Shown one piece after another: positions 51,001-54,000 of a DNA stretch of 64,000 bases (its first letter is position 1; the number at the start of each line of letters is the position of its first letter). The stretch lies in IMG/VR virus record IMGVR_UViG_2721755646_000010, one strand, 5' to 3'. The position numbers are program-made. The stretch is from a virus (lineage: Duplodnaviria > Heunggongvirae > Uroviricota > Caudoviricetes).

Positions 51001-54000
51001 AATACCAAGTTCAAGAAGAGCAATTCGGGAAAGTATGGAATTATCATTGAGCAGATAAGGCTCATATTTCCTCATGTTAATGGCATCTTCAGTAAACTCC
51101 CGGTTACTGAGCAGAACACCAATATCAAAACAACCTTCAGACGTATTAACGTTTGGTAATAACGTTTCCATTATCGCGTCCTCAACAATGAATTTTGTGA
51201 TGCAGTGCCTGGTGCCTCCAGGTGACGTTAACCAGTTAACAATTAACGCCGGATACAGAGAATCCACCCATAACACTGTTTTTGGTTTTAACTGTTCCGC
51301 GTGCGCTTAGCCGCATTCACCGCATCACAAAATTCACTTTAAAAAGGGCGGCAGAGCAGCCACGGAGTAAAACTGATACCGCCAAACGTCACCAGAAAAT
51401 TGATAACAGAGGGCGTTGCAGCGGGGTTGTCACTTAAGCGTATGGTCAACCTGACAACCCGGTGTCCTCAATGGGGAAGGAATAACCCCGCCATACTTAC
51501 CGCCGCGCCATTTCGCGGAGTGCCACAACCGGAAGCGCACGTTCGAAGAAATCTAACGACAAGCCTTCTAAGGGAAAGAGCTTCGCCGTACGCTTTCGCG
51601 TTATGCACTGACTTTTCAGGGAAATATCCTTTCAGTAAACTGTCAGTACCGGATTCTTATCCGTGTCCGGCGCACGACCACACGTGACAGCGTGTTGGTC
51701 TCCATTTTTAACCCAGAACCTCAATGGAGGATAAAATGCCAAACAAAAAAAGAAATCCGCTTATTGAAAAACAGATTGAATGCCTGGTAAATCAACTCAG
51801 GCAATCAGGGTTATTAAAAACTCATTCAGAGTTGAGGCTCACAGAATCAGCATTCGACGATAAATTAAATAATGTCCTTTATAATGGCATTATTGATTTT
51901 AATCGTTCTGTTGGTCGCCGCGGCCCTGCTGGTGTTTCCTTATAATTACCAGTCAATCCAGAGTGGACCGTGTTCAGCGTAAATATAACTGTACACATCC
52001 AGATTATATTTGTGGTCTGTTAAGAACAGGCCGCAAATACATGCCGAAGCTTCCAGTGCAGCGGCTCTGTTACTGAATAACCATGTAGCAACATTCCAGC
52101 GTTTTTCTGCATCCCAGTCTTTCTCAAGGCCTGATACCATGAAGAAACCGTTAGTGTTGCCATCAAATAATTCTGTTTCCAAATTTTTAAGCAATGCCTG
52201 ATGGACTCTTGCCAGGTATTCCGCCGGAATTTCGCCACGAATTCTGATGAGATTGTCATAAACAAACATGTTCCCCGCATATGGCGATTTTTCTTTCTTG
52301 TTTTTTAAACCAGCATCATGAGCAAACTGATCAATTTCTTCTTCCGTTGGTTTCGTATTGATGTTTTGCGCTGTCGTTTCTGCAATTTTATTTGCCACAC
52401 TCTCTGAGTCGTGTTTATTTATAGACGCACAGAAATACAATCCGGTAAACGCATCGCGCACATTACGAGCCATATTATCAGTGTCTTTTTTCGTTACCGA
52501 TTCCAATTCAAGTTCGTTCAGACGATGACGAAGTGTGTGTGCTGCAATCTCCTGGATTGAAGGAGGTAAATCTTTAAATTCCATCGTCAACCTCATCAGT
52601 CAGTGTTTCTGGCTAACCAGCGACGCGCGCCAGCTTCAGTTTTAAACGTTTTGCTTTTGGTATACGTCATCGCGGTGAACGTACCGTCCTGGTTGGGGAA
52701 CACGCCACATACCAGAGATTCGTTGTTGCCAAGATTGAGCGTATCCATGTTGACCTCATTTCCCCTTAACGCCGGGGTAGCGGAACAAAAACCTGCTGCA
52801 TAGTTATTAAAGTTGAACCCTGCCGTCATGTTCTTACGCCTCGGGCTGGCTACTTAACCCCTGACCACTGCCTGGTAACTCGAAGTATTGCCCTGCATTC
52901 TGTGGGGCGGGGTGAGGGAATGAATGAAGTTTAGAAAAACGAACATTTAAGGTCAATGTTTTTTTATCAAAACATTTTAAGCAGGCAGCTGTTACGCCAT
53001 CACTACGATGGCATACAGTTAATCAAATAGATGAGGTTGGTTAAATATCTTGTTGAATTTTAAAGCATACTCCCAATATGCAAGATAGATCATCCAGCAT
53101 AATTGAAGGGTAGCGAGGATTCGTGGGGACTAAAAGAATATCCGGCCCTTCTATCTCCAGTTTGCGAATGACAGGCGTTGTGGTCCCTTTGGGTAAGGCA
53201 AGGACAATATTTCCTGGTTGTACGATTCGATCGGGATCAACAAAAACTGTTGAACCATTTGGGATGGAAACTCCACCACCAGATGTCGACATACTGTCAC
53301 TCTCTAGAACAACAGCAAAGGTATTGGCCGGGATTTCTCCGACAAGCTGCACACAAGAGGTTATTGAGGAATTTTTCATATAATCACTCCAGCTTGCTGC
53401 CTGCTGAAGTGATAGTAGCGGAACCGTTTTTATCGGCGGTAAAGATAGATCAAGCGAATCACCTGTATTTAACTCTCCTCCATTAAGAAGCCAATTTTCG
53501 TTTACTTTCAATATCTTTGCCAGTGAACTTATGTAACGCGAGGACGGCGCTCCTCCACCGTTCATCCATTGACTTACGGAGCCTTTTGATGCGCCAGTGG
53601 CATTGACAAGGTCTTTGCCTTTCAAGTTTAGCGCATGCATACGTTGGGTTATGCGTTCAGATATTGTTTGCTTGTTCATGTTTTGATTTTAAAACACAGA
53701 TGGTTTTGTTTCTTGACTTTCTTTGGTTTTGATTATTAAACTTTTGGCGTTCAGTTTTATGGAGCGACTCATGAAAAAATCAGAAGTATTAGGCTATTTT
53801 GGCGGAGTTGTTAAAACAGCCGCCGCTCTAGGAACGTCAAAAACCACAGTCAGCATGTGGGGGGAAGACGTTCCGTGGAAATGGGCGTTGCTAATTCAGG
53901 CAGTCACTGCCGGGGCGCTCAAATATGAGTTACACATACCGACGGTTGTCATTCCCGATTCTGATCATAATCCGCCTTCTAACCAAGGGGGGATTCATGA

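What the first reader, a model, noticed from the sequence alone, without database searches (positions are those of the whole stretch)
51724..52584. Convergent gene pair with a larger variable C-terminal domain (prophage 2)
Seen in sequence: the 212-aa leftward gene with the MEFKDLPPS module has a strong GAGG ribosome-binding site, and its stop abuts the stop of a convergent 73-aa ORF within the string TTATAATTA. The C-terminal 160 aa carry no motif recognised by eye. Same genomic position as the prophage 1 pair, different cargo.
Basis: inference. Interest (0 to 1): 0.6.

Follow-up and report, generated by a model that had tools for sequence, protein, structure and literature searches.

The report
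Convergent prophage gene pair, co-inherited
Two uncharacterised genes that face each other in the early operon of an E. coli prophage are both real and have been inherited together across very different mobile elements, so they probably work as a pair, though what they do is still unknown.

Summary
A 212-aa gene (51946-52584, minus strand) and a convergent small gene share abutting stop codons inside TTATAATTA. The small gene is most likely 69 aa, starting at ATG 51736; the 73-aa reading from 51724 is the same frame. Both sit in the early-left DicF/DicB operon of a lambdoid prophage of STEC-type E. coli. The small ORF is a real gene, with dN/dS 0.19-0.26 in its own frame only. The large protein is modular. 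Its ~55-aa N-terminal helical module occurs with more than ten unrelated C-termini, and it is joined to a ~115-aa alpha/beta C-domain. That C-domain and the small protein always occur together, convergent and abutting or overlapping. This holds in E. coli lambdoid prophages, in a Salmonella integrative element, and in Salmonella int-C-Cox elements where the N-terminus is unrelated. Their identities fall in parallel (82/86% down to 38/52%). A conserved structured leader that pairs with the ribosome-binding site precedes the small gene. The same leader precedes at least ten unrelated small ORFs at this slot. No Pfam, NCBIfam, PADLOC, PDB or fold match gives a function. My best model is a cognate partner pair with reciprocal expression. 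Rare natural deletions of the small gene argue against a strict toxin-antitoxin system. E. coli K-12 lacks the cassette.

The parts
51946..52584 (-). 212-aa early-operon gene (phrog_2151; WP_000394548.1; some sources name it 'Ybl81')
52420..52584 (-). N-terminal helical module (residues 1-55, MEFKDLPxxIQEIAA...RNVRDAFTGLY). It is exchangeable and occurs with many different C-termini.
51949..52293 (-). C-terminal alpha/beta domain (residues ~98-212, secondary structure beta-beta-alpha-beta-beta-alpha-beta). This is the part that is co-inherited with the small gene.
51736..51945 (+). 69-aa convergent gene (phrog_4274; WP_001133037.1). An alternative in-frame ATG lies at 51724. The C-terminal motif GRRGPAGVxL is conserved.
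51700..51730 (+). Anti-SD CTCCAT (51700-705) pairing with ATGGAG of the ribosome-binding site GGAGG (51726-730). One pair shows a compensatory A-U to U-A change in the other leader allele.
51649..51670 (+). Leader hairpin 1 (CCGGAT...GTCCGG), nearly invariant in all loci, with an invariant U.G pair on the plus strand
51676..51700 (+). Leader hairpin 2. Its stem differs between leader alleles, and the changes keep the pairing.
51398..51735 (.). Conserved block between DicF and the small gene. It is 91% identical to prophage 1 (4258-4867) over 51067-51676. On the minus strand it is the DicF precursor region. On the plus strand it is the leader of the small gene.
   Evidence: PMC10448788
51346..51397 (-). 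DicF sRNA
   Evidence: 75 bits
52596..52748 (-). DUF1391 (YdfA-like) gene immediately upstream of the 212-aa gene
50983..51171 (-). dicB
50798..50986 (-). DUF1482 (YdfD-like) gene
53041..53679 (-). CI-like repressor (HTH plus peptidase S24)
5132..5539 (-). Prophage 1 counterpart: 135-aa protein with the same N-module (phrog_1363)
4921..5154 (+). Prophage 1 counterpart: convergent 77-aa ORF (phrog_10348) that overlaps the 3' end of the 135-aa gene by 23 nt

Best explanation
This is a real two-gene accessory cassette inside the early-left (DicF/DicB) operon of a lambdoid prophage. The 212-aa protein is made from the repressor-controlled early transcript. It joins an exchangeable ~55-aa helical N-module to a ~115-aa alpha/beta C-domain. 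The 69-aa helical protein is encoded on the opposite strand. Its gene lies behind a conserved structured leader that pairs with its ribosome-binding site.

Shown: both genes are under purifying selection, and the C-domain and the small protein are inherited and diverge together, whatever the N-terminus or the host element.

Inferred:
- The small protein is the cognate binding partner (inhibitor or regulator) of the C-domain.
- The two genes end stop-to-stop with no room for terminators. Transcription of one therefore runs antisense into the other. The small protein would predominate while the early operon is repressed, and the large protein would take over on induction.
For: The small ORF is coding: dN/dS is 0.19-0.26 in its frame only, and its protein is conserved in Salmonella and another Escherichia species.

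The pair is conserved in every context examined:
- E. coli lambdoid prophages.
- A Salmonella integrative element.
- Salmonella int-C-Cox elements, where the large protein has an unrelated N-terminus, with or without an HTH. The small gene there overlaps the large gene's 3' end by 11 or 53 nt.

C-domain and small-protein identities fall together: 82/86, 82/77, 68/61, 43/46 and 38/52%. N-terminal identity is uncoupled from these.

Within the 212-aa family, three N-module alleles sit on the same C-domain.

The same architecture recurs with other cargo pairs, and eleven of twelve combinations abut or overlap at their 3' ends.

The leader folds better than shuffled sequence on the plus strand (z -2.5 to -4.1) than on the minus strand (z -0.3 to -1.1). 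It has an invariant U.G pair and a compensatory pair in the SD hairpin.

No intrinsic terminator is predicted between or within the pair.
Against: No physical interaction, toxicity or expression data exist.

A 162-nt deletion removes the small ORF while the 211-aa gene stays intact. One Salmonella locus has a frameshifted small gene. The small protein is therefore not indispensable, at least in a repressed prophage.

Pairing is not one-to-one at other cassette types. The 133-aa type occurs with 92-aa and 57-aa ORFs, and its truncated 48-aa form occurs with a 94-aa ORF. Co-variation could partly be physical linkage between two recombination shoulders.

Hairpins 1 and 2 of the leader persist where no small ORF follows: K-12 Qin, Stx2a phages, and about half of the IMG/VR hits. 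They may therefore serve the minus-strand DicF precursor instead.

The promoter of the small gene is not identified; the best candidate matches 8 of 12 positions.

Both structure models have modest confidence (pLDDT 68 and 59).
Confidence: 0.45

Rival explanations
1. Independent cargo in a moron slot. The conserved leader would be an expression platform reading against the early operon, into which unrelated small genes are swapped. The 69-aa gene and the 212-aa protein would be functionally unrelated, and they would travel together only because they lie between two recombination shoulders (the N-module and the leader).
For: At least ten unrelated small ORF types follow the same leader, with junctions at the start codon. 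The 133-aa large type pairs with three different small ORFs. One of these scores marginally as GhoS-like (21.2 bits, cut-off 21), which would be an antitoxin-type protein with no N-module partner. Deletion of the small ORF is tolerated.
Against: Linkage alone does not explain why the C-domain and the small protein stay together and co-diverge to about 40-50% identity in elements where the N-module shoulder is absent. It also does not explain why the 3' ends nearly always abut or overlap.
Confidence: 0.28
2. Mainly an RNA-level device. The plus-strand transcript would act as a convergent, antisense brake on read-through of the early transcript into toxic dicF/dicB, by transcriptional interference and RNase III cleavage of duplexes. 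The encoded peptide would be secondary.
For: The layout is convergent with no terminator. The leader is complementary to the DicF precursor, which is processed by RNase III about 137 nt upstream of DicF (PMC10448788). The leader hairpins are conserved even without an ORF.
Against: The small ORF is under clear purifying selection at the protein level. The pair also occurs in elements with no DicF, since Rfam finds none in L092, L093, L003 or L004. No promoter is established, and the K-12 study looked only for sense-strand promoters.
Confidence: 0.15
3. Classical toxin-antitoxin or abortive-infection defence pair. The 212-aa protein would be a toxin or effector, and the 69-aa protein its essential antitoxin, protecting the lysogen against other phages.
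For: It is a large-plus-small adjacent pair in a prophage accessory region. The small partner is helical with a conserved C-terminal tail. The cargo is variable, as expected under an arms race.
Against: There are no PADLOC, Pfam or NCBIfam toxin, antitoxin or defence hits. The genes are convergent rather than in an operon. The large gene is under repressor control and so is not expressed in the lysogen. Natural deletions and a frameshift of the small gene leave the large gene intact. No catalytic motif or informative fold was found.
Confidence: 0.1
4. The small ORF is a chance reading frame antisense to the operon.
For: It is short, has no domain hit, and is absent from K-12.
Against: It shows frame-specific purifying selection and is conserved to 44-56% identity in Salmonella. 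It has a strong SD and belongs to a PHROG family.
Confidence: 0.02

Closest known systems
dicBF (ydfABC-dicF-dicB-ydfD) operon of the Qin cryptic prophage, E. coli K-12
   Same: The operon frame is the same: repressor, DUF1391/YdfA, DicF, DicB and YdfD-like genes, plus the ~330-nt conserved DicF-precursor block containing hairpins 1 and 2.
   Different: K-12 has no N-module gene and no convergent small gene. Its leader is cut just before the SD and fused to the 3' end of ydfC. YdfB is not related to the MEFKDLP module.
Polymorphic toxin-immunity and type II toxin-antitoxin cassettes
   Same: There is a constant N-terminal part, a swappable C-terminal part, and an adjacent small gene that changes with it and co-diverges with it.
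   Different: The genes are convergent and overlapping rather than co-directional. No toxin, secretion or antitoxin domain is recognisable. Loss of the small gene is tolerated. The large gene is repressor-controlled.
Phage morons (lysogen-expressed accessory genes inserted in operons)
   Same: A small accessory gene with its own translation signals sits in a recombination hot spot, and many alternative cargos use the same slot.
   Different: It shares its 3' end with the neighbouring gene and co-diverges with it. No promoter-terminator pair was identified.
Convergent antisense control in temperate phages (lambda OOP RNA versus cII; P22 sar versus ant; 186 pR/pL interference)
   Same: Opposed transcription overlaps the 3' end of an early gene in the regulatory arm. 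This comparison rests on established knowledge of those systems. A sar RNA is also present elsewhere in the window.
   Different: Here the opposed transcript encodes a conserved protein and carries a leader that sequesters the SD.
P22/lambda SieB-Esc (early-left exclusion gene with its own inhibitor)
   Same: It lies in the same general region of the early-left arm, and the idea is the same: an effector together with a self-protecting small product. This comparison rests on established knowledge and is a lead only.
   Different: Esc is an in-frame internal product of sieB. No sequence similarity to either protein was found in any search.

Membership tests
Qin-type dicBF early-left operon | DicF sRNA followed by dicB and a ydfD-like gene, downstream of a repressor-controlled promoter with a DUF1391/ydfA gene | tested here: met
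   DicF scores 75 bits. DicB, DUF1482, DUF1391 and an S24 repressor are present.
Qin-type dicBF early-left operon | ydfB and ydfC between ydfA and dicF | tested here: not met
   Prophage 2 has the 212-aa gene and the convergent gene in that position. The YdfB and YdfC sequences are unrelated to it. Prophage 1 keeps YdfC.
Type II toxin-antitoxin | Recognisable toxin or antitoxin domain | tested here: not met
   There are no Pfam, NCBIfam or PADLOC hits and no PDB sequence hit below E 0.06.
Type II toxin-antitoxin | Co-directional bicistronic operon | tested here: not met
   The genes are convergent, with abutting stops.
Type II toxin-antitoxin | Antitoxin cannot be lost while the toxin is intact | tested here: not met
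   A 162-nt deletion of the small ORF leaves the 211-aa gene intact. L005 has a frameshifted small gene.
Type II toxin-antitoxin | Toxicity of the large protein that is neutralised by the small one | not testable with these tools
   This needs expression experiments.
Polymorphic toxin-immunity cassette | Constant N-terminal region with alternative C-terminal domains | tested here: met
   About 45 clusters (at 50% identity) carry the N-module on proteins of 42-201 aa with different C-termini. Five PHROG families share it.
Polymorphic toxin-immunity cassette | Cognate small gene changes together with the C-terminal domain | tested here: inconclusive
   Pairing is one-to-one for types A, B, C, F and G. 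Type D pairs with three different small ORFs and type E with two. For type A, co-divergence is clear.
Polymorphic toxin-immunity cassette | Known toxin domain, with a trafficking or secretion N-domain | tested here: not met
Known anti-phage defence systems (PADLOC-DB 2.0) | Match to a defence-system protein model | tested here: not met
   One search gave no hits for either pair.
Type I toxin-antitoxin (small hydrophobic peptide plus antisense RNA) | Conserved hydrophobic peptide ORF | tested here: not met
   The 36-aa hydrophobic ORF 51872-51982(+) lacks its ATG in Salmonella and acquires a stop in L006. Its frame shows dN/dS above 1.
Phage moron | Own promoter and terminator flanking the inserted gene | tested here: inconclusive
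   The best promoter candidate is TTTTCA-17-TAAACT (8 of 12 positions), and it is not conserved in all leaders. No terminator is predicted.
PHROG families phrog_2151 and phrog_4274 | Full-length profile match | tested here: met
   E-values are 1.8e-147 and 1.4e-51. Both families are annotated 'unknown function'.
Rfam RNA families (for the leader) | Covariance-model match | tested here: not met
   There is no match to the leader at E of 1 or below.

The most novel reading that the evidence does not exclude
A polymorphic effector-partner system built into prophage early operons. A constant N-terminal adaptor would carry swappable C-terminal effector domains. Each effector would be matched by a cognate small protein made from the opposite strand under a shared riboregulatory leader. 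The pair would form a switch coupled to lysogeny: partner only in the lysogen, effector on induction. It could be used for host takeover, superinfection exclusion or competition between prophages.
Probability: 0.22. Interest if true: 0.8.

Novelty: new variant of a known kind. Interest (0 to 1): 0.6.

Why it matters
The cassette lies in one of the best-studied prophage operons (dicBF). It is missing from E. coli K-12, which probably explains why it has not been characterised.

The type seen here is present in about 11% of complete E. coli genomes, mainly Shiga-toxin-producing lineages. The N-module and the leader are far more widespread.

If the two proteins are a cognate pair with reciprocal expression, this would be a new way for temperate phages to package an early effector together with its control. 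It would also define a recombination-ready slot that generates diversity.

The idea is directly testable in K-12, which offers a clean cassette-free background.

The conserved leader may also matter for DicF/DicB expression, which affects EHEC virulence and cell division.

Tried and rejected
Searches on both proteins that gave nothing useful:
- Pfam, NCBIfam and PADLOC returned no hits.
- PDB sequence profiles gave only a Noc hit at E 0.06 for the large protein and nothing for the small one.
- Foldseek against BFVD gave nothing at E of 1e-3 or below.
- The afdb50 library was unavailable.
- The AlphaFold model of the small protein had pLDDT 59, too low for a fold search.

Ideas tested and rejected:
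- That the MEFKDLP module is K-12 YdfB. Their sequences are unrelated.
- That the 36-aa hydrophobic alternative-frame ORF (51872-51982) is a type I toxin. It is not conserved.

Searches that led nowhere:
- The species-representative genome scan for the N-module found only two loci.
- The first alignment was too divergent for that tool.
- The first leader alignment was mis-registered because of wrong minus-strand coordinates and was redone.
- Rfam has no family for the leader.
- The promoter scan for the small gene was inconclusive.
- Literature searches for the accessions, 'Ybl81' or the PHROG ids returned nothing.

Full report
**1. The observation**

The window holds two lambdoid prophages of a Shiga-toxin-type E. 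coli. The 1.6 kb around the finding is 100% identical to O157:H7, O121, O145, O26 and O111 chromosomes.

On the minus strand, the finding sits in an early-left operon with this gene order:
- a CI-like HTH/S24 repressor (53041-53679)
- a DUF1391/YdfA-like gene (52596-52748)
- the 212-aa MEFKDLPPS gene (51946-52584)
- DicF RNA (51346-51397, 75 bits)
- dicB (50983-51171)
- a DUF1482/YdfD-like gene (50798-50986)
- a truncated recE and a frameshifted integrase

The plus-strand ORF ends TAA at 51943-945. The minus-strand gene ends with TTA at 51946-948, so the stops abut inside TTATAATTA. GAGG lies 6 nt before the 212-aa start. PGAP annotates both genes as hypothetical proteins and starts the small one at 51736, giving 69 aa. 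That ATG has GGAGG 5 nt upstream.

**2. Both genes are real**

The 212-aa family has 153 clusters at 67-100% identity in Escherichia and Salmonella. It equals phrog_2151.

The small protein equals phrog_4274. It has 36 close clusters. A profile search finds Salmonella relatives at 44-56% identity.

I compared the window with a Salmonella copy and a copy from another Escherichia species. The small ORF has dN/dS 0.19-0.26 in its own frame and 1.26-3.67 in the two other frames. A hydrophobic 36-aa ORF in another frame (51872-51982) is not conserved and I dismissed it.

**3. Anatomy of the large protein**

The AlphaFold2 model (pLDDT 68) shows two parts:
- N-terminal helices at 8-24, 32-55, 60-73 and 81-90.
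- A beta-beta-alpha-beta-beta-alpha-beta domain at 102-199.

Within the family, three different N-module alleles are joined to the same C-domain.

A profile search of 1.84 billion representative proteins found only 55 hits:
- About 45 are the first ~55 residues fused to unrelated C-termini, in proteins of 42-201 aa.
- Two (P0176 and P0189) have the C-domain behind an unrelated N-terminus (MFNVKRNG...). P0176 also carries an HTH_3 insert.

The N-module is shared by five PHROG families. It also occurs in Stx2a-converting phages.

**4. The cassette and its borders**

The two prophages in the window share two stretches:
- 51067-51676 matches 4258-4867 at 91%. This covers the dicB 5' end, DicF and the precursor region.
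- 52447-52584 matches 5402-5539 at 69%. This is the N-module.

Everything between these stretches differs. That variable part holds the C-terminal coding region and the small ORF.

K-12 Qin has the leader block but no cassette. Its leader stops just before the SD and joins the 3' end of ydfC.

**5. Co-inheritance of the C-domain and the small protein**

Every small-protein homolog I examined lies convergent to a C-domain gene, abutting or overlapping it:
- The window and 596 of the 599 complete E. coli genomes that have the junction.
- Escherichia sp. E4742.
- A Salmonella integrative element carrying an integrase, Mu-type HTH, Phage_ASH and Derepression genes.
- Salmonella int-C-Cox elements. 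Their 217-, 220-, 286- or 294-aa proteins have the other N-terminus, and the overlap is 11 or 53 nt.

Identities of the C-domain and the small protein fall together: 82/86, 82/77, 68/61, 43/46 and 38/52%. The N-terminal region is uncoupled from these.

The reverse case, a C-domain without the small gene, was seen in only two forms:
- A 162-nt deletion (window 51738-51899) in the 'WIDWFKG'-tail variants. Three complete genomes carry it.
- One frameshifted Salmonella copy.

**6. The slot is general**

I scanned IMG/VR for leader hairpin 1 and for the N-module. This recovered further N-module/small-ORF combinations:

| Large protein (aa) | Small ORF (aa) |
|---|---|
| 112 or 119 | 64 |
| 135 | 77 (this is prophage 1) |
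| 133 | 92 or 57 |
| truncated 48 | 94 (Pfam GhoS, 21.2 bits against cut-off 21) |
| 124 | 73 |
| 106 or 109 | 91 |
| 179 or 186 | zinc-ribbon, 61 or 80 |
| 129 | 99 |
| 50 (Xenorhabdus) | 60 |

Eleven of twelve combinations abut or overlap at their 3' ends. Pairing is mostly one-to-one, but not strictly.

About half of the leader hits have no small ORF. These are K-12-like fusions or other sequence.

**7. The leader**

All small ORFs are preceded by a conserved ~200-nt sequence. It contains three elements:
- Hairpin 1, GCCGGAT..GTCCGGC, which is nearly invariant.
- Hairpin 2, whose stem differs between alleles while pairing is kept. The stems seen are CCACACG/CGTGTTGG, CTCCAC/GTGGAG, CCCAAC/GTTGGG and CCCGA/TCGGG.
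- CTCC(A)T, which pairs with the SD. One pair there shows a compensatory A-U to U-A change.

This is shown.

The plus strand folds better than shuffled sequence (z -2.5 to -4.1), while the minus strand does not (z -0.3 to -1.1). Hairpin 1 has an invariant U.G pair. No Rfam family matches the leader.

On the minus strand the same DNA is the DicF precursor. In K-12, RNase III cuts about 137 nt upstream of DicF and stabilises the upstream fragment (PMC10448788). The hairpins may therefore serve both strands.

A promoter for the small gene is not established. The best candidate is TTTTCA (51613-18), 17 nt, TAAACT (51636-41), matching 8 of 12 positions. No terminator is predicted in the pair.

**8. 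Function**

No family, defence-system, solved-structure or fold match is informative. Literature searches found nothing on these proteins.

I commit to the partner model at a confidence of about 0.45. In this model:
- The small protein binds and neutralises or regulates the C-domain.
- The stop-to-stop convergent layout gives reciprocal expression.

The rivals are:
- An independent moron slot, with the two genes merely linked (0.28).
- An RNA-level brake on dicBF (0.15).
- A classical toxin-antitoxin or defence pair (0.10).

The tolerated loss of the small gene and the repressor control of the large gene argue against a strict toxin-antitoxin system.

**9. Novelty**

Both proteins are already catalogued as 'unknown function'. 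I could not find three things described anywhere in the searchable literature:
- the modular convergent architecture
- the long-range co-inheritance of the C-domain and the small protein
- the shared leader

I file the finding as a new variant of a known kind (accessory cassette or partner pair in a prophage early operon). My interest score is 0.6.

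Noticed in passing
window 51585-51735 (+); also 4776-4920 (+); L002 (K-12 Qin) between ydfC and dicF: A conserved structured leader lies between DicF and the cassette. It has an invariant hairpin, a second hairpin with compensatory stem changes, and an anti-SD/SD hairpin. It has no Rfam family. It persists in K-12 and in Stx2a phages even where no small ORF follows, so it may also act in DicF-precursor processing or stability.
   Followed up: partly
window 4537-4586 (-): Prophage 1 carries a divergent DicF copy that scores 43.5 bits, just under Rfam's gathering score of 48. A weak STnc100-like match (32.5 bits) lies next to it at 4343-4548.
   Followed up: no
L003/L004 4001-5500 (Salmonella enterica): Two cassettes lie in tandem: 200 aa with 69 aa, then a 119-aa N-module protein with a convergent 64-aa ORF. 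Each is followed by a copy of the leader. Downstream are three repeats of IsrK-like and C4-like RNAs with Phage_ASH and Derepression genes.
   Followed up: partly
L137, L172, L175 (IMG/VR): A 94-aa ORF in the same slot scores as Pfam GhoS (type V antitoxin fold; 21.2 bits, E 2.8e-4). It is convergent to a 48-aa remnant of the 133-aa protein that lacks the N-module.
   Followed up: partly
L092-L094, L216-L222 (Salmonella int-C-Cox elements): The C-domain occurs behind a different N-terminal domain (MFNVKRNG...), with or without an inserted HTH_3. It is the first gene after Cox. There the small gene reads in the same direction as the repressor and integrase genes.
   Followed up: partly
L215 2501-3000 (Stx2a phage TL-2011c): Stx2a-converting phages carry a 131-aa N-module protein among exo, ssb and other early genes. 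It is followed by the complement of hairpin 1 but by no small ORF.
   Followed up: partly
window 47800-50705: The left arm of prophage 2 is degraded. Annotation of an identical region shows an IS256-family transposase fragment, a DinI-like gene, a frameshifted integrase and a recE truncated at its C-terminus. ORFs of 133, 115 and 512 aa at 45233-47566 (-) look like an IS66-type element, judged by size only.
   Followed up: no
window 11703-11852 and 58607-58781 (+); 37971-38037 (-); 16821-17090: Other Rfam hits in the window are two sok antitoxin RNAs (hok/sok loci), a sar RNA, and STnc100 with AgvB next to tRNA-Met and tRNA-Arg pairs in the late regions of both prophages.
   Followed up: no
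window 51872-51982 (+): A 36-aa strongly hydrophobic ORF lies in another frame across the stop-stop junction. It looks like a type I toxin but is not conserved: Salmonella has no ATG and another Escherichia has a stop.
   Followed up: yes
proteins P0017, P0046, P0092: Some database sources name homologs of the 212-aa protein 'Ybl81'. I did not identify the strain or study behind that name, and a literature search for it returned nothing.
   Followed up: no
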